Shown here: in pieces, positions 5,834 to 21,536 of the stretch | Numbering within the stretch: the first letter of the stretch is position 1 | Layout of the letters: every line of letters begins with the position of its first letter | NCBI GenBank assembly: GCA_028704635.1 | Contig: JAQWFB010000001.1 | Span: 5,541-69,540 of the forward strand | DNA: 64,000 nucleotides | DNA from: Candidatus Shapirobacteria bacterium | GTDB lineage: Bacteria; Patescibacteriota; Microgenomatia; UBA12405 | Direction: 5' to 3' | The notes under the pieces: model-generated | Told to the model about the DNA's origin: nothing | The model's database searches: none | Seen by the model: only the letters and a program-made list of their open reading frames with translations | Translations under genes and position numbers: made by a program

Positions 5834-6454
5834 TTACATTTCTTTAACTAAATTAAATTGATTTGAATTTTCACGCTTCTTTACAGCATTGTCTATATAC
5901 TTTTTGTAATTGTAATTTTTAATAAATTCATCAAAAGAAACAAGAGAAATGTAAGAATCTTTTAACTCATCATATACATTAGTGCATTGATGTAATTTAT
6001 ACGAATCTTTAATATTCATCATATTCTTTCTTACTAAATTTTCAAAATTTTTAATCGCTGTTAAAGGACAATTTTTAGAACATCGACAACAATTAAAAAT
6101 TCCCATTAAATAAGATTCTGCTTCTTTTGTATATAAAGCAACAACCCCATTTGTTCTATTATTTTCTCTATCCTCTAAGGAATATCGCAACTCATCATAT
6201 AACCAATCATCAATTTGATTATTACCATTTCTATCATAATTAATTGCATTTGGTGTAAGAATACAAATTGTTACAGATGTCTCTTTTAATTTACCGTAAA
6301 GGTATTCTTTAATAGTTTTTTCGGTTTGATTAGATCTATCTTCGTTTTCAGAATAGTTATTTATTGCAACAGTATCATCAAATAAATCATCCAATTCTTT
6401 CTTGTAATTGTTTCCATCACTAAATCTAAAAGATATAAACACATTTGTTGCCAT
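5834..6454 (-). CDS. TIR-domain protein (ThsB/DUF1863-like)
   Basis: N-terminal betaA VFISFRFSDG. Downstream SVTICILTPNAI, then DDWLYDELRYSL (W-x-x-E putative catalytic Glu helix). The start overlaps the stop of the upstream 3-TM gene (ATGA at 6454). Confidence 0.55.
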   Translation of the reverse strand: MATNVFISFRFSDGNNYKKELDDLFDDTVAINNYSENEDRSNQTEKTIKEYLYGKLKETSVTICILTPNAINYDRNGNNQIDDWLYDELRYSLEDRENNRTNGVVALYTKEAESYLMGIFNCCRCSKNCPLTAIKNFENLVRKNMMNIKDSYKLHQCTNVYDELKDSYISLVSFDEFIKNYNYKKYIDNAVKKRENSNQFNLVKEM

Positions 6455-6972
6455 TAGTATTGTTTAAATAAATAATAAAAATTTTCATTTCTAAAAGTAT
6501 TCTCTTTTTGGTTAATAAAAGTGTCATTTTTCCAGTAAATATCAATTTTATTAATATTTGAATAAAAAAATCCAAACAAAATTAATATTAATAACGGAAT
6601 ATAAAAAATATTCAATGTCTTCGAAAACATTGAATTAAGCCAACTATTTTTATTTTTTCTATAGTGTTCTGCTTTTAATGAGTAGTCAATTTTTTTGTCA
6701 TCTTTAATCAATCTAACCTCATCATAAAGTGCACGATAACATCTTTCTGTCGATAAAAAATAACCATCTAAAATCCAAAAAATTAAAATTATACAGATGG
6801 AGAATATAAAACAAAGATCATTTGAATCTTTAAACATGAAAGTAAATAACCCAACAATCAAAGTTATGGTCCACCCTTTTAACATAAAAAGATTATTACC
6901 CATACGAGTTACAATCGCCTGAATAAATTCCAAATGTTTTTGTTTATTAGTCATATAATTAACAGACACCAT
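6454..6972 (-). CDS. small 3-TM membrane protein co-transcribed with the TIR gene (candidate effector)
   Basis: Three predicted hydrophobic helices. There is 4-bp overlap with the downstream TIR ORF. Confidence 0.45.
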   Translation of the reverse strand: MVSVNYMTNKQKHLEFIQAIVTRMGNNLFMLKGWTITLIVGLFTFMFKDSNDLCFIFSICIILIFWILDGYFLSTERCYRALYDEVRLIKDDKKIDYSLKAEHYRKNKNSWLNSMFSKTLNIFYIPLLILILFGFFYSNINKIDIYWKNDTFINQKENTFRNENFYYLFKQY

Positions 6973-7494: not shown

Positions 7495-8577
7495 TCAGTC
7501 ACCTATTGATTCCAGAATTGCTTTTGCAGTTAACTCTCCAAGTCTTGGAGGCACTGCATTTCCAATTTGTTTCGCAATATCACCAAAATTGCCTATAAAA
7601 ATAAAATCATCTGGAAATGTTTGTAGTCTAGCTGCTTCCCTTAAACTAATGGCCCTATCCTGTTCTGGATGTCCGAATCTACCTTTTGTAATCATACCGC
7701 ACCCTCCAGTCATGGTTGGAGATGGAGCGTCCCATCTCATTCGACCATAAACATCTTTATGTCCTGTGGTATTTTTATGACAGGTAAGAATTAATTTTTC
7801 TGGCCATGAAGTACGATCACCACCATTTTGTGGTGTATTTTTTATTCTTTGAAGGTTTATTTCTGCAAGTGATGCTGAACGGTGGAGCTTATCATAATTA
7901 TATGTTTCTCCTGCCTCGATTTTCGGTAAATCACCAATAGTGTTCTTAACCGTCATCCAAACTTTTAAAGTAGATTCTTTTTTAGCAGGATCGGCATGTG
8001 TTTGAGATAGAAAAACTGGTTCTTTTTTTCCTTTTATACCGATAATGACAACTCTTCTTCTGTGCTGTGGTACTCCATAATCAGCGGTATCGATTACATC
8101 ATATTTCAGTTTATAACCCATTTCTTTAATGTCCCCCAACACATCTTCAAGGATATTTTTGCCGATACCTTTAGCTAATCCTGGAACGTTTTCCATTACA
8201 AAAGCAACTGGTTTAACCTGTTTAATTATTTTAACCACTTCAAAAATAAGTTTGTTTCTAGGATCATTTCTTCTCTGGCTATTTCTTCGGGCATTAGAAA
8301 AACCTTGACAGGGAGGGCAGGCAATTAATACGATTTTGTCCTTTTTGGAGAGATTTCCAGCCTTCATAAGGTATTTACCGTCAACGTCACAGATGCTTTC
8401 TTTTATAACTTTACAATCCTTAAAATTAGCTTCAAATGATTTGCCTGCTATTTCATTGTTGTCAACGGCTACCCGAATATCAAAACCCATGTTTTTAAAT
8501 CCGAGAGCTGAACCTCCACACCCTGAAAATAGATCGATTACTTTATAGTTACTGTTCACATCATAAATATATAGCAT
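7495..8577 (-). CDS. DNA (cytosine-5)-methyltransferase
   Basis: Motif I DLFSGCGG, motif IV ACPPCQGFS, motif VI ENV, motif X QIGNAVPP. Confidence 0.85.
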   Translation of the reverse strand: MLYIYDVNSNYKVIDLFSGCGGSALGFKNMGFDIRVAVDNNEIAGKSFEANFKDCKVIKESICDVDGKYLMKAGNLSKKDKIVLIACPPCQGFSNARRNSQRRNDPRNKLIFEVVKIIKQVKPVAFVMENVPGLAKGIGKNILEDVLGDIKEMGYKLKYDVIDTADYGVPQHRRRVVIIGIKGKKEPVFLSQTHADPAKKESTLKVWMTVKNTIGDLPKIEAGETYNYDKLHRSASLAEINLQRIKNTPQNGGDRTSWPEKLILTCHKNTTGHKDVYGRMRWDAPSPTMTGGCGMITKGRFGHPEQDRAISLREAARLQTFPDDFIFIGNFGDIAKQIGNAVPPRLGELTAKAILESIGD

Positions 8578-8680
8578 TTCCTAGTGTAATTTCACAGACA
8601 ATTTTATTTTGATGATAAATCTAAAATTATTCCGAGGGTAATTTTACATGGTTTGATGTTACAATATTGCAATAATCAAG

Positions 8681-11317
8681 ATGAATTGGGAAAAAATTGA
8701 AGAATCCATTTTATTGTCATATCCTTTTTTCCGGAACTTAAATAGCAAAACTCAATTAACTTCCGGAGTACATCCTTTTGTGTTGTTGAATTCCTACCTA
8801 TGTATAAAATCCATTGAAACTTCACTTCCAAAAAAATTGTTAATAATTCTGCCTTTTAAAGCAGACATCGCCAAATGGGTATCTGTTGTGACAACTTTAA
8901 AACTTCTTAAGGAAGATTCCCTTGCTAACCAAGACATTAAAATAGAATATTTACCTGGGCAAAAACTACTTATCAATGGAGTTGTAGTCGAGTTTGTTGG
9001 AGAAGAAAATAATCCTTCCTACGGTTACCGCTTTATCATACGTTACTGGAACGATGATAAAAAACACCCTGGATACATTACGGACCATATACCTTGTGAA
9101 AATAACCAGATGTTTGAGATGGCAGACCAGAATTGTGAAATTAGTTCATATTCTAAGGTTGTAAAAGCATTGTTAGGTCTTGAAGAATCAAGTGTAGTTA
9201 CAAATGATATTCTTGGAATAAATTTTAGAAATACAATATCTAGATTTGAACGTAATGTAATCTTGGTATCTGGAATTGGAGAGACAAAAAGATTTGCGGA
9301 AATGAATACTGTTAACAATGTATTGGTCAGTGAGTTATTTCCGTGGGGTAAGTTGGATTACACGGGCGACACAACAGCATTATTTTATAAGGAAAAAGCA
9401 AAACCAAACTGCATCATTAGTTCCAATATGTTCGGAATCGAAGAATATATATCAAAAAAAGGAAAAAATTATGGAATTATTATTGATGGTATCGATAAAT
9501 GCACTGACAATCTCCAACAATTAGATGATTTGATCGACTCTGGAAATAGGATTGTTGTATTTTGCGACAGAAATGAACTCGATGAAGCGAATAAGTATTT
9601 AATTAATAGGGATTTCCTCGTTTGGTCATGGGATAAAAAGATGATTGCAGGGTTAACTTCAACTTTGTCTATTGGAGACATTAATAAGTCTTTCAATACC
9701 CAGTTAAAAAATTACTCTGAGTTGGGTATTAAGGTATTAAAAAGTAATAACCCAATAATTGAAGAATTAATCAATATTTCGTCTCCTGTTTTAAAAATTA
9801 ATCCAGAAGATTCAGGTCTTATTAATAAATTTAAATTCAATCTACTCTCTGCGATTAATGAAATAATTAGATTGGGATTTATACCCGACAACGAATATTT
9901 AACTAGTTTTCTAAAAAAATTGGAGGAATTAAAAAAAGAATACGGATTAATTAGCAACATGGCCAGCAATGATACTCGTGTTGGACTTACGAAAATTTTA
10001 GACATGTTAACAAATCTGAAAATTAATGATTTTGCTCACCCAGAAAGCAAAGCAAATAAAATTATTTCCTGGTTTAACAACTTGAGTGGTGACGACAAAA
10101 ATAAAAAATACATAACAATCTTTGATGACTTGAACCCCGCTCGACTTCACCAAGATCACTTCGCAAATTCAATCGATAAAGAAATAAAACTAGAAACGAT
10201 AGCTTTTGAAGATTTTATTATCTCCCACAATTTTGAAGAAGATGCCGTTATTTTTACCGGATGGCCAGGTAAAAAAAAGATGAAAATAATATCAAATATC
10301 AATGCGGCAAAAAATATGTTGTTTTTTCTGTATCCTCAGGAACAAAAATGGTTCAACTCATATATCAGAAACACCGAAAAATATAGCTTTGGAAAAAATG
10401 AACTTGATAAATTTGCGGAATATCTGGATGTACCAGTTATTGAAGAATTAAAAACAGCATTAACAGAGTACTCTGATCAAACGGAAAACATAATTGGAAT
10501 TGATGACATAACAGAGGCACAAGATACCTTATTAATAAGCTCATATTTACCAGACGATAATGAATGTAACAATCCAATACCGTCTAAATTAGTTGTTTTT
10601 AATAGAGATTATTTCTGGTACTCAACTGAGAACCATCGATTCATTGTTATTACGGATTTGATTGCTAATTGTACTGATGGACAAATAAAAACTTCAAGAC
10701 CAGAGGGTCTTCATGTGGGCGATACTGTTTTGATTAGGGAGTCAAATAAAGATTTAATCAGGGAAATTGCTGAAATTGATTTAAAAAATAGAGATGAAGA
10801 ATGGGCTATCGAAAAATCTAAAGTCTGGAAAGATGCACTGAAAACCGAATACAAAAAACAATATGAAAATATTTTTCGTTTAATCAGTGTGTTAAGAGAA
10901 GCTGGATGTAATAGACAAGTTCAAACCATTAAGCTTTGGCTCTTTGAAGATGACCGTATTGGTTTAAGGGATGAAAAGGATCTCGAATATATAGCGAAAG
11001 CAACTGGTTCAAAGGAAATGATTAATAACCTGGACAAAATTCGTGAAGCAATACATCTTGTCCGGGCAGCACATTTAAGAGCAGGTGACACACTCGCGAA
11101 AGAGCTTTTGAACCGATTGCCCGATGTTCTTAATGGTACAGGAAATAAAATCAGGTCAAGTATCGATCTTGGAGAATATGGTACAGCCTTTTTACTTAAG
11201 GTTATTGTTGTTGCCGATGACTATATTGATATCGAAAGTATTAAAGTTAATAAGTTACTAAATAAAAACAAATCAAATGATCAGACTCATACCTCCACTG
11301 TTGTCTTCAGAAAATAA
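8681..11317 (+). CDS. large hypothetical protein, first gene of the helicase/DUF1998 operon (DrmE-like by position only)
   Basis: 878 aa with no recognisable catalytic motif. The 3' end overlaps the next gene by 41 nt. Confidence 0.5.
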   Translation: MNWEKIEESILLSYPFFRNLNSKTQLTSGVHPFVLLNSYLCIKSIETSLPKKLLIILPFKADIAKWVSVVTTLKLLKEDSLANQDIKIEYLPGQKLLINGVVVEFVGEENNPSYGYRFIIRYWNDDKKHPGYITDHIPCENNQMFEMADQNCEISSYSKVVKALLGLEESSVVTNDILGINFRNTISRFERNVILVSGIGETKRFAEMNTVNNVLVSELFPWGKLDYTGDTTALFYKEKAKPNCIISSNMFGIEEYISKKGKNYGIIIDGIDKCTDNLQQLDDLIDSGNRIVVFCDRNELDEANKYLINRDFLVWSWDKKMIAGLTSTLSIGDINKSFNTQLKNYSELGIKVLKSNNPIIEELINISSPVLKINPEDSGLINKFKFNLLSAINEIIRLGFIPDNEYLTSFLKKLEELKKEYGLISNMASNDTRVGLTKILDMLTNLKINDFAHPESKANKIISWFNNLSGDDKNKKYITIFDDLNPARLHQDHFANSIDKEIKLETIAFEDFIISHNFEEDAVIFTGWPGKKKMKIISNINAAKNMLFFLYPQEQKWFNSYIRNTEKYSFGKNELDKFAEYLDVPVIEELKTALTEYSDQTENIIGIDDITEAQDTLLISSYLPDDNECNNPIPSKLVVFNRDYFWYSTENHRFIVITDLIANCTDGQIKTSRPEGLHVGDTVLIRESNKDLIREIAEIDLKNRDEEWAIEKSKVWKDALKTEYKKQYENIFRLISVLREAGCNRQVQTIKLWLFEDDRIGLRDEKDLEYIAKATGSKEMINNLDKIREAIHLVRAAHLRAGDTLAKELLNRLPDVLNGTGNKIRSSIDLGEYGTAFLLKVIVVADDYIDIESIKVNKLLNKNKSNDQTHTSTVVFRK

Positions 11318-13001
11318 AAGTAGCGGAGAGAGAAAACTATTTAATCTTTTTCTAAAAAGTGGAAATACTGATGATTGGACTGTTCTTCACTCATTAAATC
11401 TGAGTGAACATATAAATCAAATATGTGGAGAAATTGATTTTCTTGTTTTAGCCCCAAATTTAGGTATATTTTGCCTTGAGGTAAAGTCTGGGAACGTAAC
11501 ATGTCATGATGGGCTATGGATATATCGGGATAGATTTGGTGTTGACCATAAAAGCACCAAAGGTCCTTTCGTTCAAGTCAAAGATAATATGTTTAGTTTG
11601 ATCGAGTGGGTTAAAAAAAAGACTTCTAATAATCCAAAATTAATAAACATGTTATTCGGCTACGGAGTAGTATTTCCCGATGTTTCATTCAACATCGATA
11701 GTATCGAGTATGATCGATCATCCGTGTTTGACAATATGACTGGTTCTATCGAATCTTTTATCACAACTCTAGCTGAAAATACCAAAAAAAAAGAAGAGAA
11801 CTTAGGTAGAAAAAGATATTTACCATCACTAAAAGATATTGAAACTCTGGTCAGTATTCTAAGGCCTGAATTTGAAGTTTTCAGGAGCACTAAGGACATT
11901 TTAAATGATACCGAAGAAAAAATTAGTTCTTTCACGGAAGAACAATATAAATGTCTTGATTCTCTTAAAGATAATCCCCGTTGTTTATTTAATGGAGCCG
12001 CTGGAACTGGAAAGACGGTCATTGCCGTCGAATCCGTTAAAAGAAAAGTTTTTGATGAAAAGAGAGTGTTATTTATCTGTTTCAATTCTTTATTAAGTGA
12101 ATGGTTAAAATCCAGATTCACAGACAGTGAAAAAAAGTTTGTCACAATCGAAACACTTCCAGGTTATATGGAGAAAATAGCAGCCATTCCAGAATATATT
12201 AAACGCGACAACTATTATTTTGACCACGTATTACCAACAAAAGCCGCAGAATTGATTGTAAAAGACTTTAGTAAATTTGACTATCTGATCGTTGATGAGG
12301 GTCAGGACATAATTAGCGAAGTAAATTTTGCTTTTCTTGATAAGGTCTTAAAAAATGGAATAGCAAAAGGTTTCTGGGAAATTTATTGTGATATGGACCG
12401 TCAGTCATTATTTGCAAAACTATCACCAAAATTAATGAGAGAAAAAATCTCAAAATGGTCACCCAATGGTTTTGTATCTTATAAACTGAACATCAATTGC
12501 CGTAATACTAAAAATATTGCCGAGGAAATTTCTCTGGTATGCGGGTTTGAAAAAGACCAACTATTGCCAGGTAATATTGAGGGAAATCTACCGGTAAACT
12601 ATAAGTTTGTTGATCATGATCAGATTCCTTTTGAAATAGACAAAATAGTGGATTTTGTTTACTCAAAAAAGATTCCTTTAAACAGGATAACAGTGCTATC
12701 ACCAAAAAAATATCAGCTATCTGAGGCCTCCAAGATAAAAAGTAAATGTACAGTTTTAGAACGTAACAATCTATTTTCAATACCAGTCGATTCAATAACA
12801 TTTTCAACTATCGGAAAATTTAAAGGGTTGGAAAATTCTTTTATAGTTGTCACAGACTTTGATTCTATTGAAGAAGACTGTTTGGAAAAACTTTACGTCG
12901 CCATGTCTAGGGCAAAATATGGTCTATATTTGATTATGGGAAAAGAAGCCGAAAAAGATTATGATTCCATTGTTAGTAAAGTTAATAGCGTACAAAGATA
13001 A
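11277..13001 (+). CDS. NERD nuclease-related domain fused to UvrD/PcrA-like SF1 helicase core
   Basis: NERD: GEIDFLVLAPNLGIFCLEVKSG. Walker A NGAAGTGKTV, Walker B LIVDEGQDI, C-terminal LYVAMSRAKYGLYLI (UvrD_C motif). Confidence 0.7.
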   Translation: MIRLIPPLLSSENKSSGERKLFNLFLKSGNTDDWTVLHSLNLSEHINQICGEIDFLVLAPNLGIFCLEVKSGNVTCHDGLWIYRDRFGVDHKSTKGPFVQVKDNMFSLIEWVKKKTSNNPKLINMLFGYGVVFPDVSFNIDSIEYDRSSVFDNMTGSIESFITTLAENTKKKEENLGRKRYLPSLKDIETLVSILRPEFEVFRSTKDILNDTEEKISSFTEEQYKCLDSLKDNPRCLFNGAAGTGKTVIAVESVKRKVFDEKRVLFICFNSLLSEWLKSRFTDSEKKFVTIETLPGYMEKIAAIPEYIKRDNYYFDHVLPTKAAELIVKDFSKFDYLIVDEGQDIISEVNFAFLDKVLKNGIAKGFWEIYCDMDRQSLFAKLSPKLMREKISKWSPNGFVSYKLNINCRNTKNIAEEISLVCGFEKDQLLPGNIEGNLPVNYKFVDHDQIPFEIDKIVDFVYSKKIPLNRITVLSPKKYQLSEASKIKSKCTVLERNNLFSIPVDSITFSTIGKFKGLENSFIVVTDFDSIEEDCLEKLYVAMSRAKYGLYLIMGKEAEKDYDSIVSKVNSVQR

Positions 13002-16000
13002 ATGCCTTTTAAAGACCAATTAATCGATTTTCTTAAAAAGGGTCTAATGGGACCAAATCCAACAGAGGGTAATGTTCAGGAAAACGGCGAAGAAATAATA
13101 ATAGGTAGCAATCCTTGTGATAGATATTCACTTGGAGTTCTTTTCCCGCAAAGTTCAAATACTCCTAAAAAAGATGAAATTGAGGATATTGGAAGTGAAG
13201 AAGCAACTGAAGAAGTAGTTAATCTCGCAAATTCCATGGCTCCTTCTGCTATGGGATTTAGTTGTGGATTAATATCCCCATTTAATGATCTGATAATAGA
13301 AATAAAGGCTGGGACTTATCAAAAAGTCGATGATTATGAGAGTTCTGGAAGATACGCTTTTTTAAGGCATCAGATAAATTATGAAATAAAAATCAGCAAA
13401 GAATCATTATCAGCATGTGATGGTATTCTGCATTTTCCCATAAAAAACGGTGATGAGGAAACAAAATTAGGTTTAATACTTTTGAGAAGAAAAATTGGAT
13501 CCTTAACTCATGGAGAAGACCTGTTTACATTTTCTTTAGTCAATTATAATAACGAAGGACGTGATGAAAAATGTTTTTTCCAATGTCAGTTTATCGTTAA
13601 GTCTGTTGACGGAAAACCCTGTTTTGCACCTTACCCCGATATTTCTGAGGCTTTTGGCAACGACTATGACCGTCTTTTAAATGCATATCTGTATCGGGAT
13701 AAAAAGACTTTCGCAATAGGGCATGGATGCTCTCCGCTATGGAATGACACAAAGAACGATGTCTCAGAAATATGTGCAAATGCAATACCTTCATATGAAA
13801 TGAAACCAGTTATCCCTACAACTATTGAAGGTTGTTCACTTGGAATGTATGAAATGAGTGATGAAGGTAAAGTTGAAAATATTTTTGAAAAGATAGAAAC
13901 ACTTTGCCGTGAATATGAAAATTGGATTAATGGTCAACAAAGAATAATTGAAGTAGAAACAAATATAAAGTATAAAGAAATCGGTCAAAAAAACATCCTT
14001 AATTGTAAGATGTGTCTTGATAGAATGCGTGAGGGATTTACATTGTTGAAAACCGATTCGGTAGTATTGGAAGCGTTCCGTTTAATGAATCGGGCTATGT
14101 TGTTACAACAATTGCATTACAAAATTGATTTAAGGATTTGGGATGATAATGACGACATTGTCCAAGTGAAAATGCCTAAGTTGAACGACAAAAGCACCTG
14201 GCCTGACAAAGTTGGTAATTGGTATCCGTTTCAGTTGGCTTTTATCTTAATGAACTTGGACTCTATGTCTGATCCCAGCAGTAAATATCGGGAAATGGTC
14301 GACCTGATTTGGTTTCCTACTGGAGGCGGAAAGACTGAAGCATATTTAGGCTTGACTGCTTTTACTATCTTTCTAAAGAGATTGACTGATAAAAATGATG
14401 ACGGAACAACTGTTTTAATGCGATATACCCTGAGACTACTTACAAATCAGCAATTTCAAAGAGCGTCATCCTTAATATGTTCATGCGAATACATTAGGTC
14501 ATCAATTCCACAAAAATTGGGTGAAACAAAAATTACTATTGGCCTTTGGGCAGGTAGTGGTTTAACTCCTAATACTAGACCAGAAGCAGTCAGTAAATTT
14601 AAAAAATTGCTACAGGGACAGGATGATGTAAATTGTTTTTTAATCGATAAATGTCCATGGTGCGGTGCTCAAATGGGTTTTATTAAGAAAAAAAACATAA
14701 AAGCTAAAGGTTATAGGCAAATGTTACACCCGTCAACTGTTATTTTTCGCTGCTCAGACCAGGAATGTTTTTTTTCACATGAGGAAAGTCCTCTACCTTT
14801 ATTAGTAATTGATGAAGATATTTATGATAATCCTCCATCGTTGGTTATCGGAACAATAGATAAATTTGCAATGTTAGTTTGGAAACCAGAATCTGTACGA
14901 AAAATATTTGGATTTAGGGATAACGGAAGAGTTTTGCCGCCATCATTAATAATCCAAGATGAATTGCATTTGATTTCTGGCCCCCTTGGGTCGATTGCTG
15001 GAATGTACGAAGTATTAATTGAAGAATTATGCTCCCAGAAAAATAGTAGTGGAATAATAAAACCTAAAATTGTTGCCTCTACTGCTACTGTTAGTAGGGC
15101 CAAAGAACAGGTGAATGCCCTTTATGGCCGAGACGTTTTTATTCTTCCGCCACCAGCAACTAAAGCAAATGATTCTTTTTTTGCTAAAGAAGCCGTCGAT
15201 TTGCCAGGAAGAACTTATTTAGGCATCTATGCTCCATCGTTAAGTCATGCAACCGCTCATGTCAGAACGGTTTCTTTCCTATTGGAGGGAGTAAAATATA
15301 TACCAGCAGATCCGACTGTTAAAAACTATTATTGGACTTTATTGGATTACTTTAATAGTCTTCGGGAACTTGGGCATGCCAAAACAAGGATATCAGCAGA
15401 TATTCCAGAGTATCTGAATATTGTATATAGTTATCTTGGCCTGTTTCATGCTTCAATAGAGGAAAAGGCTAAACGAAGATTTATTAATCCAAGCAAATGT
15501 CCAGAGTTAACCAGTCGTGTAGACGAAATTTCTAAAGCTCTTAATGATCTAAAAGAACCATATTTATTGGAAAATTCTAAAGCATTGGATATTTGTCTTT
15601 GTACTAATATGATTTCCGTTGGCATTGATATTGATAGGTTAGGTTTAATGACTGTAGCTGGACAACCAAAGACAACAGCCGAATATATCCAAGCCACCAG
15701 CCGTGTTGGAAGAAGTAGTAAGGGACCAGGTTTGGTTGTAGCTATATTTAATACCCCTAAACCAAGAGATAGATCTCACTATGAAAATTTTCTCTCTTAC
15801 CACTCAAAAATTTATAGCTTTGTTGAGCCTACCAGCATCACTCCATTTTCCAGACCAGCAAGAGAAAGAGCTTTGCATGCACTTTTAATCGGATATATCA
15901 GATATTTTGGTTCCACAGACAATCTTTTATCTCCAAAAAACATTAGTGATCAGAATATATTTACCCGTTTTACAGAAATGATTAAAAATAGAGTTATAAA

Positions 16001-16265
16001 AATTGACCCAGATGAAATGGAAGGATGTTTAACAGAAATTGATAAATTAAAACGGCGTTTGTTTAGATTACATGCCGAAAAATACTACGGTAACGGTATA
16101 GAAAGATGGGCAAATTGTCTTATCTATCCCTATGGTGTAGTTCCTCCAGATTCTGATACAAGAAACAGAATGTGGCCCACACTTCAGTCGATGAGAAATG
16201 TAGACCTGACTTGTCAGATAGAACCAGATACTTATTATTTAGATCCTCCAGATGTCACAATATAG
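13002..16265 (+). CDS. DrmA-like DExH-box SF2 helicase with internal Cys4 insertion
   Basis: Motif I WFPTGGGKTEAYL, motif II IIQDELHLISG, motif III STAT, motifs V/VI GIDIDRLG...YIQATSRVGRS. A CPWCGAQ...FRCSDQEC zinc knuckle lies between motifs I and II. The start abuts the previous stop. Confidence 0.7.
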   Translation: MPFKDQLIDFLKKGLMGPNPTEGNVQENGEEIIIGSNPCDRYSLGVLFPQSSNTPKKDEIEDIGSEEATEEVVNLANSMAPSAMGFSCGLISPFNDLIIEIKAGTYQKVDDYESSGRYAFLRHQINYEIKISKESLSACDGILHFPIKNGDEETKLGLILLRRKIGSLTHGEDLFTFSLVNYNNEGRDEKCFFQCQFIVKSVDGKPCFAPYPDISEAFGNDYDRLLNAYLYRDKKTFAIGHGCSPLWNDTKNDVSEICANAIPSYEMKPVIPTTIEGCSLGMYEMSDEGKVENIFEKIETLCREYENWINGQQRIIEVETNIKYKEIGQKNILNCKMCLDRMREGFTLLKTDSVVLEAFRLMNRAMLLQQLHYKIDLRIWDDNDDIVQVKMPKLNDKSTWPDKVGNWYPFQLAFILMNLDSMSDPSSKYREMVDLIWFPTGGGKTEAYLGLTAFTIFLKRLTDKNDDGTTVLMRYTLRLLTNQQFQRASSLICSCEYIRSSIPQKLGETKITIGLWAGSGLTPNTRPEAVSKFKKLLQGQDDVNCFLIDKCPWCGAQMGFIKKKNIKAKGYRQMLHPSTVIFRCSDQECFFSHEESPLPLLVIDEDIYDNPPSLVIGTIDKFAMLVWKPESVRKIFGFRDNGRVLPPSLIIQDELHLISGPLGSIAGMYEVLIEELCSQKNSSGIIKPKIVASTATVSRAKEQVNALYGRDVFILPPPATKANDSFFAKEAVDLPGRTYLGIYAPSLSHATAHVRTVSFLLEGVKYIPADPTVKNYYWTLLDYFNSLRELGHAKTRISADIPEYLNIVYSYLGLFHASIEEKAKRRFINPSKCPELTSRVDEISKALNDLKEPYLLENSKALDICLCTNMISVGIDIDRLGLMTVAGQPKTTAEYIQATSRVGRSSKGPGLVVAIFNTPKPRDRSHYENFLSYHSKIYSFVEPTSITPFSRPARERALHALLIGYIRYFGSTDNLLSPKNISDQNIFTRFTEMIKNRVIKIDPDEMEGCLTEIDKLKRRLFRLHAEKYYGNGIERWANCLIYPYGVVPPDSDTRNRMWPTLQSMRNVDLTCQIEPDTYYLDPPDVTI

Positions 16266-18093
16266 AAAAAAAAGACCAGTAAGACAGGGACAACTTATAT
16301 CACCATGGGGTGTAGGACAAATGATACCTTTTCCAGAAGGGGACTCTCTCATGATAGCTGGACTTGATGCTTGGCAGGAAAAATATGGACATCCAGGAGA
16401 AGAGAAATACTTTGTCCAGGAGTTAAGATTGGAGAAAAGATTAGGGGTTAAACATTTTAGATTACCCCCTAATTTTATAGAGGAAGAAAGGGATCAGGCC
16501 AAGACCGTGCCTGCGATCAGATTTCCACAATGGCACTATTGCAAACACTGTGGTTCTATGGAGAAGTTAAGTATTTTTAGTACCCAATTACCCCACTGTA
16601 AAGGATTGCCATATGATGATATAAGTTGTCAAAATACACCTGAAAAAAGAAGGCTAAAGATGATACCAGTCCGCTTTGTAGTTATCTGTCCTGATGGACA
16701 TATCGATGATTTTCCATTTATGGAATGGGTGCATAGTAAAAGTAAAATGGTAGAAACCCCAGATTGTCGGTTAAGATACAAAATTAGAAGTGCTGGAAGT
16801 TCACTCGGTGCCATCAAATTAATCTGTAGTTGTGGAGCCAAGTCCAGTATGCATGGGTCATTTAATAAAGGGGGCTTAAAAAATATTTTAAAATGTAAAG
16901 GGTATAAACCGTGGCTAGGTAAAATTGAAGAATTCGATTCCGAACCGTGTGATAAGGAGTTGACTGTTGCTCAAAAAGGCGGATCAAACGTATATTTTCC
17001 AAATGTAATAAGCTCAATTTATATTCCCAGCGAATTTAGACCTGAGATTCATGAAAAATACCTTGATGAATATTGGAGTTACTTGACTGGGGTTTTAAAA
17101 AATGACGTATTAGATTTTGAAAGGTTTAAAAACGTTGCACTTAAAAACGGATTAGATCCCCAGGAGTTTTATGATAATGGGTTAAAACGCTATAAGGAAG
17201 CCACTAATTACGATGAGAGCCTTACAGAAAACGATATCGAAAAGGAAATTAGAAAACAAGAATATATTTACCTCACAGGAAATAAAAATATTGACAACGA
17301 TTATTTGACTCAAAAAACGTCACCTATTGATGGTTATAGTAAATTAATCCAAAGTTTTTGCAACCAAATATCTCTTGTTCACCGTCTTAAGGAAACCAGA
17401 GTTTTTACAGGATTTTCAAGATTAAACTCTAATGATGGTAAAACTTTATCTCAAAGAAAAAGTGAATTGTCATTAAAAAAAATTGATTGGCTTCCAGCTA
17501 TAACTGTTAGCGGTGAAGGTATTTTTCTAAAATTTAAAGACAGCCTAATCAAAACGTGGGAAACAAATGCTCTTGTAAAAGAAAGGGCAGAAATTATTAA
17601 TAACAACTTTGCTAATTATGCCCGCCAATTCAATTTACCCGAAAGAACAGTTAGCCCTGGATACATAATGGTCCACACTTTTTCCCATATTTTAATTAAT
17701 GAACTTAGCCTTGTTTGTGGATATGGAAGTTCGTCTTTAAGAGAGAGGATATATTTTAATGAAGATCAGGGCGAAAGTTATTTTGGTTTGTTGATCTACA
17801 CAGCATCTGGAGATTCTGAAGGATCTCTTGGTGGCCTAGTAAAACAGGGGTTACCCAGTCGACTAAACGAAATGATAATGTCCGCCTTAAATAAAGCAAG
17901 TTGGTGCTCGGTCGATCCAATCTGTATTGAAAGCCGTGGTCAAGGATTGGGATCGTGCAATTTAGCCGCATGCCACAACTGTGTCCTTCTACCAGAAACA
18001 TCCTGCGAACAATCAAATAGATTACTCGACCGTGCCATGTTAATCGGTACATTGGAAAACCATGAGATTGGTTTCTTTTCTAATATGGAATAA
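16252..18093 (+). CDS. DUF1998-family protein (DrmB-like), N-terminal multi-Cys region
   Basis: C-terminal WCSVDPICIESRGQGLGSCNLAACHNCVLLPETSCEQSNRLLDRAMLIG is the DUF1998 hallmark. There are 14 nt of overlap with the upstream helicase. Confidence 0.7.
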   Translation: MSQYRKKRPVRQGQLISPWGVGQMIPFPEGDSLMIAGLDAWQEKYGHPGEEKYFVQELRLEKRLGVKHFRLPPNFIEEERDQAKTVPAIRFPQWHYCKHCGSMEKLSIFSTQLPHCKGLPYDDISCQNTPEKRRLKMIPVRFVVICPDGHIDDFPFMEWVHSKSKMVETPDCRLRYKIRSAGSSLGAIKLICSCGAKSSMHGSFNKGGLKNILKCKGYKPWLGKIEEFDSEPCDKELTVAQKGGSNVYFPNVISSIYIPSEFRPEIHEKYLDEYWSYLTGVLKNDVLDFERFKNVALKNGLDPQEFYDNGLKRYKEATNYDESLTENDIEKEIRKQEYIYLTGNKNIDNDYLTQKTSPIDGYSKLIQSFCNQISLVHRLKETRVFTGFSRLNSNDGKTLSQRKSELSLKKIDWLPAITVSGEGIFLKFKDSLIKTWETNALVKERAEIINNNFANYARQFNLPERTVSPGYIMVHTFSHILINELSLVCGYGSSSLRERIYFNEDQGESYFGLLIYTASGDSEGSLGGLVKQGLPSRLNEMIMSALNKASWCSVDPICIESRGQGLGSCNLAACHNCVLLPETSCEQSNRLLDRAMLIGTLENHEIGFFSNME

Positions 18094-18274: not shown

Positions 18275-19471
18275 TTACTTATCCTCATAATCCTTTAATG
18301 TGTACTCTTCTTGATATTCTTTGATTTTGTTTAAAATTTTATTTTGACTGTCTACGGCGTAGACTTTTACAATTCCCATCGTACCAGGAGATGGTGCTCC
18401 TCCACCTGATAATTGTGATTTAACTACTATATTATTTCCAATCACCTTAACTCTAATGTCAGTTCCATCTTCAATTAAAAGATTTGTATTATCATCGACT
18501 ATAGTTGATATGGATAACGTTTGACCGTGACAGCTTGAACAACCTTCTCCATTTAAAAACAAAGCTTGTAGGGTTAATTTTCCAACAGTAAATATTTGAC
18601 TTTTTAAAATTACTTCCCTATATTCATTAACTTTAATTAAAGTTTTGTTTTGATTATCTACTTCGTAGACTTTTACATTAATTGCGTCTTCTCCTGTTCC
18701 CACCATGTCTGATTTGAATCTAACCTCAATAGTATTTTTGTCTACTCTAACATTGATTCCATAACCTTTTTCTTTTAAAAACAAATTATCTTTATCAAAA
18801 ATATATAGTTCCTGGGAAACACTACTAGAAATAGGTATCGTCACTAAACTTTCTAGTTTTGACTCATCAACAACTAATTTAGTTTTATTCAATTTCCATA
18901 GACTCTGATTACCTACCAACTTTGAAATTAATGAATAGCTGTTTAAATATTTACTATCTTCCTTAGACAAGGTGTCATCACGGCGTGGATTGATGTTTTC
19001 CTTAATCTCTCCAGTTATTGGATTCACTATTAAACGGTAAGAAGCCGAATAACTTCCACGGTCTGGTTCATTGTTAGACAACTCAATATTTATTCCATCT
19101 ACTACCTTGGCCGAAATTAAACTAGCATTGGCCTGACCCTGTTGGAATAGTTTGGGATAATTATCCTTTCTTACAGTTAAATCAGGCTTAAAATTGTTCT
19201 CACTTTTATTACCCTCAGTGGGATTAATAAAAATAGAACCTTCTGTTAATTGAATTATTAAAACTCCTTTAGGAGTATCTAGGGAAACACTATAATCCAA
19301 TGGTTTGCTTTTATCCTCAGGAACTACAGTTTTTGAATTGTTTTCAATATCAGTAATAACTTCTCTTGGAATGTGTCGACTTATCTTTTCTCTGACTTTA
19401 CTAAAAAAACCAGCAACTAAACAAAAAACAAAGAATAGTATTAGAATTGAAAATAATTTATTTTTAGTCAT
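18275..19471 (-). CDS. secreted/lipid-anchored hypothetical protein
   Basis: N-terminal signal/TM LFSILILFFVFCLVAGFF, then a beta-rich sequence with no catalytic motif. Confidence 0.4.
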   Translation of the reverse strand: MTKNKLFSILILFFVFCLVAGFFSKVREKISRHIPREVITDIENNSKTVVPEDKSKPLDYSVSLDTPKGVLIIQLTEGSIFINPTEGNKSENNFKPDLTVRKDNYPKLFQQGQANASLISAKVVDGINIELSNNEPDRGSYSASYRLIVNPITGEIKENINPRRDDTLSKEDSKYLNSYSLISKLVGNQSLWKLNKTKLVVDESKLESLVTIPISSSVSQELYIFDKDNLFLKEKGYGINVRVDKNTIEVRFKSDMVGTGEDAINVKVYEVDNQNKTLIKVNEYREVILKSQIFTVGKLTLQALFLNGEGCSSCHGQTLSISTIVDDNTNLLIEDGTDIRVKVIGNNIVVKSQLSGGGAPSPGTMGIVKVYAVDSQNKILNKIKEYQEEYTLKDYEDK

Positions 19472-19590: not shown

Positions 19591-19809
19591 ATGGAAGACC
19601 GTAAGGTAACGAATAAAGACTTAAAATTTGGTAAGAGACTTCAACGAGTCAGAAAATCGGCTGGTTTCACTCAAGAAAAACTAGCAGAGGGGACAAGACT
19701 AAGCACAACCTTCATAGGATTACTTGAAATTGGTCAAAGACGACCAAGTATGAAAACACTCCAAAAAATCGCATCAACATTGAAAGTAGATGTAAAAGAT
19801 TTGTTTTGA
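19591..19809 (+). CDS. XRE-family HTH transcriptional regulator
   Basis: FTQEKLAEGTRLSTTFIGLLEIGQRRPSMKTLQKIASTL is a Cro/C1-type HTH. It is a paralog of 26391-26600 (shared C-terminal D[IV]KDLF). Confidence 0.7.
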   Translation: MEDRKVTNKDLKFGKRLQRVRKSAGFTQEKLAEGTRLSTTFIGLLEIGQRRPSMKTLQKIASTLKVDVKDLF

Positions 19810-19852
19810 CCGACTAGACTTTATTAACCACTGGTTTATAATTAGGTTAATA

Positions 19853-20167
19853 ATGATATTTCCAAATAATAGTTGGCTAGAAAAACATTGGTGGCATAGA
19901 CTAGCAAAAATCTTCAGAATAATTTTTTCTTTATTTTTTATTTTTGTTGCGATATATTATGTCGCTTTTGTTCCGGTTGTTGATCCTGCCATGAACATTT
20001 CTATTCCAATTTGCGCTGGAATATCAATATTAATTGCCATCTTTGGTTTTCCTCTTTTGTATAAAATTTTACTGTATGTTTTTGTAAGTGATTGGAAAAC
20101 AAAAATTAAACCCGATAAAAAAAGTTCAGAACAAACTAAAGCTAAATGGAATCATACGATAATGTAA
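19853..20167 (+). CDS. small 2-TM membrane protein (hypothetical)
   Basis: Hydrophobic helices. Confidence 0.35.
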   Translation: MIFPNNSWLEKHWWHRLAKIFRIIFSLFFIFVAIYYVAFVPVVDPAMNISIPICAGISILIAIFGFPLLYKILLYVFVSDWKTKIKPDKKSSEQTKAKWNHTIM

Positions 20168-20360
20168 GTTAAAGTCTACCCGCGTAGACAATTACATAAA
20201 ATTTTAAACAATCAATTATTGTTCGTCTTAGTATTGCTGGCAACGAGACAATCATAAATCTTAAATAAGTTTAGGTCGTATTAACACCAAATCTGGCTTC
20301 ACTAAATGACCTAGAATCGTTGGAATATCATTAATCGAGTATAATTAGGTTAGATTAATA

Positions 20361-21053: not shown

Positions 21054-21302
21054 CCAATATCGATAATGTGAAACAGTGTGAAATGATGAGAAATCCCTAA
21101 AGTAGGGCATAACTGATTATACAATCTGTTATGTCAATAAATTTAAATGAAGATTGGCTCAATAGTGAGCTTAAAAAAGAGGTACTCGATCTCTTTCAAC
21201 CTTTGTATAAACACCCATTGACTGAAACTGAAGTAACAAATATTGCCAACACTCTCGCCAACACAGCCGAATTATGGATTAAATTCAACTGGAGGATCGA
21301 TC

Positions 21303-21536
21303 ATGCCAACTAATAACTATAGAACCAAGGATCTAGCTGAATCAGCCACCCTGCTTACCTTAGGACAAAAAATTATTGATGTTGAAAGAATAGACCGTAT
21401 TTGCTGGTTTGTTTTTGCCGATTCAAAAAAATGCCAAAAAATAGCTAATCAATTTTGGTATGACCAATGTCTCGTCGATGCCAAAACTTATTATGATTCG
21501 ATTGTCAGGTTAAAAAATAGAATATTTTCTAGCTAA
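21303..21536 (+). CDS. DUF5659-like small protein typical of integrative elements
   Basis: YRTKDLAESATLLTLGQKIIDVERIDRICWFVFADS...FWYDQ pattern (DL.LAa.L..lG..l / kv.FvF / .Yw). The internal Met start is inferred. Confidence 0.4.
   Translation: MPTNNYRTKDLAESATLLTLGQKIIDVERIDRICWFVFADSKKCQKIANQFWYDQCLVDAKTYYDSIVRLKNRIFSS

What the first reader, a model, noticed from the sequence alone, without database searches (positions are those of the whole stretch)
8681..11317. 878-aa orphan protein leading the defence operon
The protein has no Walker, nuclease, methyltransferase or HTH motifs that I can see, yet it is the promoter-proximal gene and overlaps the NERD-helicase gene by 41 nt. It is positionally equivalent to DrmE, which is itself uncharacterised. 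It is a candidate sensor or specificity subunit.
Basis: inference. Interest (0 to 1): 0.55.

Follow-up and report, generated by a model that had tools for sequence, protein, structure and literature searches.

The report
DrmE pseudo-helicase of a DISARM variant
The "orphan" is a divergent member of the known but uncharacterised DrmE family of the DISARM anti-phage system; it folds like a helicase that has lost its ATP-burning motifs, and it is almost always paired with a nuclease-helicase that takes the place of the usual DISARM nuclease.

Summary
The ORF is real: 8681-11317, 878 aa, with a 41-nt overlap onto the next gene. It is not an orphan. It matches NCBIfam DrmE_fam end to end (257.6 bits, cut-off 80) and Pfam DrmE_C, and GenBank already names it "DrmE family protein" (MDD4382540.1, Candidatus Shapirobacteria). 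The locus is a class-2-type DISARM: C5 methylase, DrmE, NERD-SF1 helicase, DrmA, DrmB. It has no PLD DrmC.

New here:
- A confident AF2 model (pLDDT 87) matches only SF2 helicases, best MDA5/LGP2/RIG-I. Walker A, DExH and any conserved RecA2 arginine are absent across 81 relatives, so DrmE looks like an ATPase-dead pseudo-helicase.
- Its C-terminal domain matches no solved fold.
- In 27 of 28 DrmE-anchored loci from many phyla, DrmE is directly followed by the NERD helicase, whose nuclease and ATPase motifs are invariant.
- DrmE diverges fastest (24% identity vs 44% for DrmA). Its divergence tracks the NERD helicase, not the methylase.
- A sister clade splits DrmE into two genes at the predicted domain boundary.

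Best reading: DrmE is a non-catalytic partner or regulator of the NERD nuclease-helicase. This is inferred, not shown. The identity is ordinary and the architecture is mildly novel.

The parts
7495..8577 (-). C5 cytosine DNA methyltransferase (DrmMII role), divergently transcribed from drmE
   Evidence: Pfam DNA_methylase 243 bits. PADLOC MTase_II 335 bits and DrmMII 189 bits. NCBIfam dcm 197 bits. GenBank MDD4382539.1 'DNA cytosine methyltransferase', annotated as 354 aa against the 360-aa ORF.
8578..8680 (.). 103-bp divergent intergenic region between the methylase gene and drmE; presumed promoter region
   Evidence: Sequence read. The consensus promoter scan shows no enrichment over shuffles (45 found vs 51.6 expected), so no promoter is demonstrated.
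8681..11317 (+). drmE: 878-aa DrmE-family protein (the finding)
   Evidence: ORF. NCBIfam DrmE_fam 257.6 bits against a cut-off of 80. Pfam DrmE_C 35.8 bits against 27. GenBank MDD4382540.1. AF2 model pLDDT 87.2, pTM 0.81.
8828..9670 (+). DrmE aa 50-330: RecA1-like alpha/beta domain with a beta insert (aa 95-140). The motif-I position is an invariant Pro58 with no GK[ST]. The motif-II position reads IIIDG.
   Evidence: DSSP of the model. Foldseek matches are to SF2 helicases only. Column counts over 81 sequences. This domain is a separate gene in a sister clade: hhalign prob 80.7%, E 1.3e-5, aligned to DrmE 27-311.
9671..10096 (+). DrmE aa 331-472: all-helical domain between the two RecA-like domains. 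It is among the least conserved parts and ends at invariant K457.
   Evidence: DSSP. Column entropy 3.07 bits. Invariant columns.
10097..10396 (+). DrmE aa 473-572: small RecA2-like alpha/beta domain with conserved G527-W528, Y551, E554 and W557 and no conserved arginine (no motif VI)
10397..10573 (+). DrmE aa 573-631: acidic, partly low-confidence linker (net charge -14 here; negative in 95% of the family)
   Evidence: pLDDT 52-65 over aa 580-610. Charge statistics.
10574..11275 (+). DrmE aa 632-865: C-terminal domain (Pfam DrmE_C), made of a small beta-barrel, a helical bundle and a long beta-hairpin. It is the most conserved part and matches no solved fold.
   Evidence: Pfam. Separate AF2 model pLDDT 88.3. 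Foldseek against the PDB: best E 0.25. Entropy about 2.4 bits.
11277..13001 (+). NERD (PD-(D/E)xK) nuclease fused to an SF1 UvrD-like helicase, 574 aa. It is the conserved partner of DrmE and the probable effector in place of PLD DrmC.
   Evidence: Pfam NERD 47 bits, ResIII and UvrD_C_2. D54/E68/K70, GxAGTGKT and DExQD are invariant in 24 of 24 sequences. The profile matches SF1 helicases in the PDB: helicase IV/HelD 1.7e-14, Upf1, GajB, UvrD.
13002..16265 (+). DrmA, YprA-family SF2 helicase, 1087 aa
   Evidence: PADLOC DrmA 705.7 bits. NCBIfam DISARM_DrmAS 873 bits, which is below the 950-bit equivalog cut-off.
16252..18093 (+). DrmB, DUF1998/MZB protein, 613 aa
   Evidence: NCBIfam DrmB_fam 466.8 bits against a cut-off of 240. 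PADLOC DrmB 262.9 bits. Pfam MZB.

Best explanation
The gene encodes DrmE, the essential but uncharacterised extra component of class-2-type DISARM. The system here is a variant made of DrmMII (C5 methylase), DrmE, a NERD-SF1 nuclease-helicase, DrmA and DrmB, without the PLD nuclease DrmC.

Shown:
- Family membership of DrmE.
- DrmE has a two-RecA, SF2-helicase-like fold with a helical domain between the lobes and a family-specific C-terminal domain.
- The ATP-binding and hydrolysis motifs are missing across the sampled family.
- DrmE is nearly always followed, with a gap of 12 nt or less or an overlap, by the NERD helicase.
- The two diverge in step.

Inferred:
- DrmE is a non-catalytic pseudo-helicase that forms a sub-complex with the NERD-SF1 nuclease-helicase.
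- It positions or licenses that enzyme, and keeps it off until DrmAB has engaged unmethylated invader DNA.
- The system therefore consists of two co-evolving pairs, DrmA-DrmB (loader/translocase) and DrmE-NERD helicase (effector with its regulator), with DrmMII marking self.
- The conserved acidic linker may act as an auto-inhibitory element.
For: Identity:
- NCBIfam DrmE_fam 257.6 bits against a cut-off of 80, end to end.
- Pfam DrmE_C above its gathering score.
- DrmA, DrmB and a C5 methylase are adjacent.
- GenBank already names it DrmE family protein.

Fold:
- AF2 pLDDT 87.2, pTM 0.81.
- 55 Foldseek PDB hits at E<=1e-3. All those listed are SF2 enzymes or SF2-derived domains: MDA5 at 2.7e-7, LGP2, RIG-I, Dicer, XPF, XPB, Mfd, CHD, CSB.
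- The hits carrying a description in the viral structure library are mostly SF2 helicases.

Dead ATPase:
- No GK[ST] at the motif-I position in any of 81 sequences; there is an invariant Pro58 instead.
- The motif-II position reads I-I-I-D-G.
- No conserved basic residue in the RecA2-like domain.

Partnering:
- 27 of 28 DrmE-anchored loci, from Patescibacteria, Chloroflexota, Bacillota, Pseudomonadales, Planctomycetota, Bacteroidota and Atribacteria, have the helicase immediately downstream, followed by DrmA and DrmB.
- Partial Mantel test: DrmE vs NERD helicase r=0.64-0.72, p about 5e-4. The known DrmA-DrmB complex gives r=0.69. All cross-pairs give 0.07-0.19, not significant.

Effector competence of the partner: the PD-(D/E)xK triad, Walker A and DExQD are invariant in 24 of 24 sequences.

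NERD helicase in the DrmC slot: it follows DrmB in L038, L045, L069 and L073, and probably in the truncated L040 and L086. No PLD motif is present in the window or in 21 loci.

Modularity: a sister clade encodes DrmE as two genes, split at aa ~320-337.

Literature:
- drmE deletion abolishes class 2 DISARM defence, and drmC is dispensable (bioRxiv 10.1101/2021.12.28.474362).
- DrmA and DrmB form a 1:1 complex and DrmC does not co-purify with it (PMC9142583).
Against: - No physical interaction was tested or modelled.
- The co-divergence signal rests on 12 loci. It could equally arise if the left and right halves of the operon are exchanged as blocks.
- Some NERD-helicase/DrmAB cassettes have no detectable DrmE (L030, L036, L038, L045, L073), and one DrmE locus lacks the helicase (L012). 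The pairing is therefore not obligatory.
- No DrmE domain is consistently basic and the protein is acidic overall, so DNA binding is not supported by composition.
- Absence of the canonical motifs does not strictly exclude unconventional nucleotide binding.
- The C-terminal domain, the most conserved part, has no recognisable fold, so its role is unknown.
Confidence: 0.45

Rival explanations
1. DrmE is the specificity or methylation-state reader. It recognises the same DNA motif as the DrmMII methylase, in its unmethylated form, and so tells the helicases what to attack, like the S or target-recognition subunit of a restriction system.
For: - It is the promoter-proximal gene next to the divergent methylase.
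- It evolves fastest of the core proteins (24% mean identity), as specificity determinants often do.
- It is essential for class 2 DISARM, and deleting the methylase is deleterious there.
Against: - Methylases of unrelated sub-families (23-56% identity) accompany orthologous DrmE, in varying positions and orientations.
- DrmE divergence does not follow methylase divergence once DrmA is controlled for (partial r 0.05, p 0.33).
- L001 and L006 have a 55-56% identical methylase, yet their DrmE is no closer (26-29%) than in L003 (30%), whose methylase is only 27% identical.
- The most conserved region is the C-terminal domain rather than a hypervariable reader.
- No HTH, SRA, EVE or other reader fold was found.
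Confidence: 0.12
2. DrmE is a stand-alone infection sensor with an RIG-I-like architecture. Its dead helicase core clamps an invader nucleic-acid structure, or binds a phage protein, and this binding switches on the other components.
For: - The best structural matches are the RIG-I-like receptors MDA5, LGP2 and RIG-I (E 1e-7 to 1e-4).
- The domain order is RecA1, helical domain, RecA2, linker, CTD.
- Fast evolution fits an arms-race interface.
- The helical domain and the linker are the most variable parts.
Against: - TM-scores are low (about 0.25-0.31), so the similarity is at fold and architecture level only.
- There is no zinc-binding RD-type C-terminal domain (no CxxC; no fold match).
- RIG-I-like receptors need ATP hydrolysis for discrimination, whereas DrmE lacks the motifs.
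- The composition is acidic with no basic domain.
- This reading overlaps with the best explanation and is not excluded by it.
Confidence: 0.25
3. DrmE is a cryptically active helicase or translocase that binds ATP through non-canonical residues. It would be the class 2 counterpart of the SNF2 helicase DrmD of class 1 DISARM.
For: - SF2 fold.
- SNF2 enzymes (CHD1/4, CSB, phage HepA-like) are among the matches.
- Class 1 has DrmD where class 2 has DrmE.
- There is a conserved Asp at the motif-II position (64 of 81), and K457 and E554 are invariant.
Against: - No P-loop in any of 81 members, and no DExx.
- No conserved arginine in RecA2.
- The two lobes are on separate genes in a sister clade.
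- No profile similarity to DrmA (hhalign prob 0.2%).
- The operon already carries two intact motor ATPases.
Confidence: 0.08

Closest known systems
DrmE of class 2 DISARM (Ofir et al. 2018; NCBIfam NF038316, Pfam PF24957, PADLOC PDLC02635/02636)
   Same: - Full-length NCBIfam match and a DrmE_C domain.
- About 800-900 aa.
- Encoded with DrmA, DrmB and a C5 methylase.
- No annotated catalytic domain.
   Different: - PADLOC's DrmE models touch this protein and 20 diverse relatives only weakly (29.5 bits or less) and only in the C-terminal domain. This is therefore a distinct clade.
- The clade is followed by a NERD-SF1 helicase and lacks the PLD DrmC that PADLOC's type II definition requires.
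RIG-I-like receptors (MDA5, LGP2, RIG-I) and the Dicer helicase domain
   Same: - Best structural matches.
- Two RecA lobes plus a helical domain, followed by a C-terminal domain.
- A role in immunity.
   Different: - No ATPase motifs.
- The C-terminal domain is unrelated and has no zinc site.
- No sequence similarity.
- TM-scores of only about 0.25-0.3.
Helicase-like domain of XPF/ERCC4 (Hef/FANCM lineage)
   Same: By established knowledge, it is an SF2-derived domain with degenerate ATPase motifs that serves as a DNA- or protein-binding scaffold for a structure-specific nuclease. It appears among the Foldseek matches (9qec_A, E 3.1e-4).
   Different: In XPF the nuclease is fused to the same chain. 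Here the nuclease (NERD) is on a separate SF1 helicase protein. No homology is demonstrated beyond the fold.
DrmC (PLD nuclease of DISARM), compared with the partner gene rather than with DrmE
   Same: Candidate nuclease of the system. In several metagenomic loci the NERD helicase occupies the position after DrmB, where DrmC normally sits.
   Different: The NERD helicase has a PD-(D/E)xK fold rather than a PLD fold and carries its own SF1 motor. In DrmE-bearing cassettes it lies upstream of DrmA.
DrmD (SNF2 helicase of class 1 DISARM)
   Same: The class-specific extra SF2-fold protein that accompanies DrmAB and a methylase.
   Different: DrmD retains SNF2 ATPase motifs (pfam00176). DrmE has none and gives no Pfam SNF2 hit.

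Membership tests
DrmE family (NCBIfam NF038316 / Pfam PF24957) | Full-length match to the curated family HMM above its cut-off | tested here: met
   257.6 bits against a cut-off of 80, E 2.6e-76, aa 37-860 on profile positions 17-838 of 838.
DrmE family (NCBIfam NF038316 / Pfam PF24957) | DrmE_C C-terminal domain above the Pfam gathering score | tested here: met
   35.8 bits against 27 for the whole protein. 39.3 bits for the isolated domain, and 25 of 25 relatives hit it.
DrmE family (NCBIfam NF038316 / Pfam PF24957) | Encoded next to DrmA and DrmB | tested here: met
   Window. Relatives: every locus that extends far enough has them.
DrmE family (NCBIfam NF038316 / Pfam PF24957) | Required for anti-phage defence | not testable with these tools
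   Known only for the Bacillus class 2 system, as cited.
Class 2 / type II DISARM (PADLOC definition: DrmA, DrmB, DrmC, DrmE, DrmMII) | DrmA helicase and DrmB (DUF1998) | tested here: met
   PADLOC DrmA 705.7 bits and DrmB 262.9 bits. NCBIfam DrmB 466.8 bits against 240. DrmAS scores 873 bits, below the 950 equivalog cut-off.
Class 2 / type II DISARM (PADLOC definition: DrmA, DrmB, DrmC, DrmE, DrmMII) | C5 cytosine methylase DrmMII | tested here: met
   Pfam DNA_methylase 243 bits. PADLOC DrmMII 189 bits, although generic MTase_II and DruM models score higher.
Class 2 / type II DISARM (PADLOC definition: DrmA, DrmB, DrmC, DrmE, DrmMII) | PLD-domain nuclease DrmC | tested here: not met
   - The only HxKx4D match in a window ORF of 80 aa or more is a bare one inside DrmB.
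- The ORFs scanned around the operon (roughly 4-25 kb of the window) give no PLD family hit.
- None was found in 21 related loci.
- DrmC is reported to be dispensable and often missing.
Active SF2 helicase | Two RecA-like lobes | tested here: met
   Foldseek probability 1.0 to many SF2 helicases in two libraries. This is structural evidence only; hhalign to DrmA is negative.
Active SF2 helicase | Motif I (Walker A, GK[ST]) and motif II (DExD/H) | tested here: not met
   Invariant Pro58 and no GK[ST] at the motif-I position. IIIDG at the motif-II position. Counted over 81 sequences.
Active SF2 helicase | Motif VI arginine finger in RecA2 | tested here: not met
   No column with 75% or more K/R between aa 473 and 572. 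The conserved residues there are G527, W528, Y551, E554 and W557.
RIG-I-like receptor | Zinc-binding C-terminal regulatory domain | tested here: not met
   No CxxC motif. The isolated C-terminal domain has no significant PDB fold match.

The most novel reading that the evidence does not exclude
DrmE and the NERD-SF1 helicase form a previously undescribed two-protein effector module that defines a third DISARM architecture. In it, an ATPase-dead pseudo-helicase with RIG-I-like domain order acts as the nucleic-acid pattern sensor or gatekeeper for a nuclease-helicase. This would be a prokaryotic counterpart of helicase-fold immune sensors, and it would explain why drmE is essential while the PLD nuclease is not.
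Probability: 0.15. Interest if true: 0.7.

Novelty: new variant of a known kind. Interest (0 to 1): 0.4.

Why it matters
DISARM is a widespread anti-phage system whose killing step is unknown. The PLD nuclease DrmC is dispensable, while DrmE is essential, and no fold or function for DrmE is described in the papers I could search. Three observations turn "function unknown" into a testable proposal for where the DISARM nuclease activity resides and how it is controlled:
- DrmE is a motif-less SF2 pseudo-helicase.
- A large, phylogenetically broad clade of DrmE is paired with an intact NERD-SF1 nuclease-helicase in place of DrmC.
- The two co-diverge as tightly as the known DrmA-DrmB complex.

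There is also a practical consequence. PADLOC's DrmE models score this clade at 29.5 bits or less and its type II rule requires DrmC, so such loci may be under-called; I did not run PADLOC itself. The occurrence in a small-genome Patescibacteria (CPR) lineage is a minor additional point of interest.

Tried and rejected
- The search for related loci with the 81- and 17-sequence DrmE alignments failed because no stretch was conserved enough. A 12-sequence subset worked, but it biases the sample toward the motif [RK]D[IL]IRE[IV]AD. I offset this with eight look-ups of divergent members.
- A second homologous-protein search with the alignment returned nothing new.
- tblastn against plasmids gave no match.
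- I suspected an HTH in the conserved 'GCxRxxxTI[KR]xWL' segment (helices 731-740 and 747-755). A Pfam scan of 25 C-terminal domains at E<=1 gave only one member with a wHTH hit, at E 0.22. The idea is unsupported and I dropped it.
- DrmE as a degenerate paralogue of DrmA or of the NERD helicase: hhalign probabilities are below 1%. Rejected.
- PDB sequence and profile searches of DrmE returned only coiled-coil noise.
- A search for PLD/DrmC by motif and by family scans was negative.
- The promoter and terminator scan was no better than shuffled sequence.
- Per-domain charge did not reveal a basic DNA-binding domain.
- The original DISARM paper (Ofir 2018) is not in the held library. What I state about the Bacillus system comes from papers that cite it.
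- A literature search on 'DrmE' alone was swamped by unrelated words.
Full report
**1. Observation**

The ORF listing returns an ATG-initiated ORF at 8681..11317 (+) of 878 aa (translation). It heads a compact co-directional block: 11277..13001 (574 aa), 13002..16265 (1087 aa) and 16252..18093 (613 aa).

The 41-nt overlap with the second gene is real rather than a start-codon artefact. That protein's N-terminus, MIRLIPPLLSSENKSSGERKLF, aligns residue for residue with the conserved MxRxIPP...KS..E+..F start of 23 orthologues.

Regular-expression scans find no Walker A, DExH, PLD or CxxC motif in the protein. The only DEAD-like hit is 'IIIDGI' at aa 266. So the factual part of the finding holds.

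**2. It is not an orphan**

- NCBIfam's DrmE_fam (NF038316) scores 257.6 bits against a cut-off of 80 (E 2.6e-76). The match covers aa 37-860 and profile positions 17-838 of 838.
- Pfam's DrmE_C (PF24957) scores 35.8 bits against a gathering score of 27.
- PADLOC's DrmE model gives only 17 bits, and only over the C-terminal domain.
- The identical sequence is GenBank MDD4382540.1, 'DrmE family protein [Candidatus Shapirobacteria bacterium]', on a 199-kb contig. The source is a member of the Patescibacteria/Microgenomates.
- An exhaustive phmmer search of 1.84 billion cluster representatives finds 676 relatives at E<=1e-3 and 473 at E<=1e-10. Nearly all are 830-900 aa and aligned end to end. 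No full-length relative found exceeds 31% identity.

The protein is therefore a deep-branching member of a large family.

**3. The locus**

- DrmA: PADLOC 705.7 bits; NCBIfam DISARM_DrmAS 873 bits, just under the 950 equivalog cut-off.
- DrmB: NCBIfam 466.8 bits against 240.
- A divergently transcribed C5 cytosine methylase at 7495..8577 (Pfam 243 bits).
- The second gene is a NERD domain fused to a UvrD-like SF1 helicase (Pfam NERD 47 bits, ResIII, UvrD_C_2).

No PLD (DrmC) is present. The only HxKx4D match in the window lies inside DrmB, and flanking ORFs give no PLD hit. GenBank names the neighbours only generically: 'NERD domain-containing protein', 'helicase-related protein' and 'DUF1998 domain-containing protein'.

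[quoted passage not shown] This locus therefore departs from the definition.

**4. What is known of DrmE**

All eight papers in the held library that mention both DrmE and DISARM treat it as a gene of unknown function.
- Deleting drmA, drmB or drmE abolishes class 2 DISARM protection, whereas drmC is dispensable (bioRxiv 10.1101/2021.12.28.474362).
- DrmA and DrmB form a 1:1 complex that loads on 5' single-stranded overhangs. DrmC does not co-purify with it. The roles of DrmD and DrmE were left for future work (PMC9142583).
- A 2025 survey of YprA/DrmA-family systems does not mention DrmE in its main text. It describes PLD as the typical DISARM nuclease and mentions NERD only for the unrelated TALON system.

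I found no description of DrmE's fold or of a NERD-helicase DISARM variant.

**5. Fold**

With an 81-sequence alignment (A1), AlphaFold2 gives a confident model: mean pLDDT 87.2, pTM 0.81.

Foldseek against the PDB returns 55 matches at E<=1e-3. All those listed are SF2 helicases or SF2-derived domains, namely:
- chicken and human MDA5 (best 2.7e-7), LGP2 and RIG-I;
- Dicer helicase domains;
- XPF, XPB, Mfd, CHD1/4, CSB and DHX36.

TM-scores are low (0.2-0.3), as expected for flexible multi-domain proteins. In the viral structure library, the matches that carry a description are mostly SF2 helicases of the SNF2, SSL2 and DEAD types, and there is no full-length phage DrmE.

From the DSSP string I parse the protein as follows:
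- a RecA1-like domain (aa ~50-330, with a beta insert at 95-140);
- an all-helical domain (331-472);
- a small RecA2-like domain (473-572);
- an acidic linker of lower confidence (573-631);
- a C-terminal domain (632-865).

The boundaries are my inference from the secondary structure.

**6. The ATPase machinery is gone in the sampled family**

- In A1 the strand corresponding to beta-1 ends in an invariant proline (P58, 81 of 81), followed by x-[KR]-x-x-x-A-x-W. No sequence has GK[ST] there.
- The ten Walker-A-like strings found among the 155 proteins held lie at scattered positions, none at the motif-I site.
- The motif-II position reads I-I-I-D-G (D in 64 of 81, G in 53 of 81) rather than DExD/H.
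- The RecA2-like domain has no column with 75% or more K/R, so there is no arginine finger. Its conserved residues are G527, W528, Y551, E554 and W557.
- Profile-profile comparison of DrmE with DrmA, the NERD helicase and DrmB is negative (probability below 1%). The helicase relationship is visible only in structure.

DrmE is therefore best described as an SF2 pseudo-helicase.

**7. The C-terminal domain**

This is the most conserved region: mean column entropy is about 2.4 bits, against about 3.1 for the helical domain and linker. Modelled alone (pLDDT 88.3), it has no significant match among solved structures. The best Foldseek E-value is 0.25, to short intein-like beta segments. Sequence profiles find nothing in the PDB.

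A conserved helix-turn-helix-like signature caught my eye, but a Pfam scan did not support it.

No domain of DrmE is consistently basic. The protein is acidic overall (family mean -11). The linker carries -14 in this protein and is negative in 95% of the family.

**8. Gene context of relatives**

DrmE-anchored loci came from two sources: a genome scan (19 loci) and eight look-ups of the closest and of deliberately divergent members.
- 27 of 28 loci have an SF1/NERD helicase immediately downstream of DrmE. Where genes were called, the junction ranges from a 12-nt gap or less to an overlap. DrmA and DrmB follow wherever the contig continues.
- A C5 methylase lies upstream, downstream or on the opposite strand.
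- The loci come from Patescibacteria, Chloroflexota, Bacillota, Pseudomonadales, Planctomycetota, Bacteroidota and Atribacteria.
- Only L012 lacks the helicase. None of the first 21 loci has a PLD motif.
- PADLOC's two DrmE models score the 20 diverse members tested at 29.5 bits or less, and only in the C-terminal domain. This clade is thus distinct from the DrmE on which PADLOC's models were built.

The NERD helicase's PD-(D/E)xK triad (D54, E68, K70), Walker A (GxAGTGKT) and DExQD are invariant in 24 of 24 sequences. Its motor is SF1: helicase IV/HelD 1.7e-14, then SLFN11, Upf1, GajB and UvrD. It is a credible active nuclease-helicase.

**9. Reciprocal scan**

I searched metagenome contigs with a NERD-helicase alignment, which gave 67 loci, and typed the neighbours with HMMs built here.
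- The closest relatives (over 700 bits) sit in the full DrmE cassette.
- Several loci place the helicase after DrmB, where DrmC normally lies, with no DrmE: L038, L045, L069 and L073, and probably the truncated L040 and L086.
- Distant NERD helicases (under 300 bits) mostly stand without any DISARM gene.

So the NERD helicase is a recurrent DISARM nuclease alternative, and the pairing with DrmE is strong but not absolute.

**10. Split DrmE**

In nine mid-distance cassettes (L031, L032, L033, L037, L048, L049, L050, L058, L078) the helicase is preceded by two ORFs of about 320-390 aa and 510-585 aa.
- Several of the second ORFs (e.g. L032, L033) align collinearly to DrmE profile positions ~320/340 to 860; in others only the C-terminal part matches. 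As a profile, the second ORFs match DrmE 337-878 with hhalign probability 99.8%, E 2.4e-30.
- The first ORFs, as a profile, match DrmE 27-311 with probability 80.7%, E 1.3e-5. Their 'iPTr' and 'vlDGa' segments lie on P58 and IIIDG.
- Controls against DrmA, the NERD helicase, DrmB and the methylase are all below 1%.

The gene is thus split at the boundary predicted from the structure. This supports the domain parse. It also fits a scaffold better than an enzyme whose active site would span both lobes, although a split enzyme cannot be excluded.

**11. Who does DrmE evolve with?**

Mean identity of the window's proteins to their orthologues in the same loci:

| Protein | Mean identity |
|---|---|
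| DrmE | 24% (range 19-30) |
| NERD helicase | 36% |
| DrmA | 44% |
| DrmB | 43% |
| Methylase | 31% (range 23-56, i.e. swapped sub-families) |

Results from a mirror-tree analysis on 11-12 loci:
- DrmE distances correlate best with NERD-helicase distances (r 0.95).
- After removing the DrmA signal, the partial correlation is 0.72 (Mantel p about 5e-4). For the methylase it is 0.05 (p 0.33).
- With quadratic control for both other proteins, DrmE vs NERD helicase is 0.64 (p about 5e-4).
- The known DrmA-DrmB complex serves as a positive control and gives 0.69 (p about 5e-4).
- All cross-pairs give 0.07-0.14, not significant.

The operon resolves into two co-diverging pairs.

Caveats: the number of loci is small, the distance pairs are not independent, and block-wise recombination of operon halves would give the same pattern.

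**12. Interpretation**

Shown:
- The protein is DrmE.
- It has an SF2 fold without ATPase motifs.
- It is nearly always adjacent to an intact NERD-SF1 nuclease-helicase, and the two co-diverge.
- PLD is absent.

Inferred: DrmE is a non-catalytic partner that assembles with the NERD helicase and regulates or targets it. DrmAB recognises invader DNA ends and DrmMII marks self. The closest functional analogy is the dead helicase-like domain of XPF, which scaffolds a nuclease. The closest structural analogy is the RIG-I-like receptors.

A sensor role remains possible. I put about 0.97 on the identity and about 0.45 on the partner/regulator mechanism.

**13. Verdict**

As a gene identification the finding is ordinary: an already annotated family member. 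Two things lift it above routine.
- DrmE itself is an open problem.
- This clade's architecture (pseudo-helicase plus NERD-SF1 helicase instead of PLD, with split-gene variants) is not described in the libraries or papers available to me.

I rate it a new variant of a known kind, with interest 0.4.

Noticed in passing
window 5834-6454 (-) and 6454-6972 (-): Two abutting minus-strand ORFs lie just upstream of the methylase. The first has a borderline ThsB-type TIR domain hit (21.8 bits against a cut-off of 21.2). The second has only a weak DUF3278 hit. They may be another small defence gene pair in the same island.
   Followed up: partly
window 19591-25301: Downstream of DISARM lie an XRE-type HTH gene (19591-19809), an HTH_36 protein (21556-22050), a large serine recombinase (22092-23699; Resolvase, Recombinase and Zn_ribbon_recom domains) and a DUF4145 protein (23659-24354). 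This looks like an integrative mobile element bordering the defence locus.
   Followed up: partly
window 18275-19471 (-): A 398-aa convergent ORF directly after drmB has a hydrophobic N-terminal segment and no family hit in Pfam, PADLOC or NCBIfam. Self-BLAST shows no internal repeat at E<=1e-3. It is probably a membrane or secreted protein unrelated to DISARM.
   Followed up: partly
L031, L032, L033, L037, L048, L049, L050, L058, L078 (upstream of the NERD helicase): In a sister clade DrmE is split into two genes (about 330 aa plus about 530 aa) at the RecA1-like/helical-domain boundary. hhalign gives 80.7% and 99.8% probability to the corresponding DrmE halves.
   Followed up: yes
L038, L045, L069, L073 (also the truncated L040 and L086): The NERD-SF1 helicase is encoded after DrmB, in the DrmC position, with no DrmE. 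L045 carries two consecutive DrmA-DrmB-NERD-helicase units.
   Followed up: partly
L034 (whole cassette): A methylase-DrmE-NERD helicase-DrmA-DrmB cassette in which every gene except the methylase is broken into 3-5 ORF fragments. It is either a decayed pseudogenised system or a frameshift-rich assembly.
   Followed up: no
L001, L022, L023, L092; L093/L094; window: Vsr (T:G mismatch endonuclease) genes sit beside several of these C5-methylase-bearing cassettes. L093/L094 carry EcoRII plus Dcm next to the cassette. An AIPR abortive-infection gene precedes DrmE in L022 and L093/L094. The window has no Vsr homologue (phmmer, E<=0.01).
   Followed up: partly
window 7495-8577 (-): GenBank annotates the methylase as 354 aa (MDD4382539.1), whereas the longest ORF is 360 aa. 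A Logan assembly carries the 360-aa form. This is only a start-codon ambiguity.
   Followed up: no
DrmE model vs BFVD, rank 49: A 69-aa uncharacterised phage protein (A0A8S5MED7, Siphoviridae sp. ctYh54) aligns over 70 columns with some part of DrmE (TM 0.54 normalised to the target, probability 1.00, E 0.018). The output does not show which DrmE segment it matches.
   Followed up: no
window 13002-16265 (+): DrmA scores 873 bits on NCBIfam's DISARM_DrmAS equivalog, below the 950 cut-off. This is why GenBank calls it only 'helicase-related protein', and it fits a diverged DISARM sub-type.
   Followed up: no
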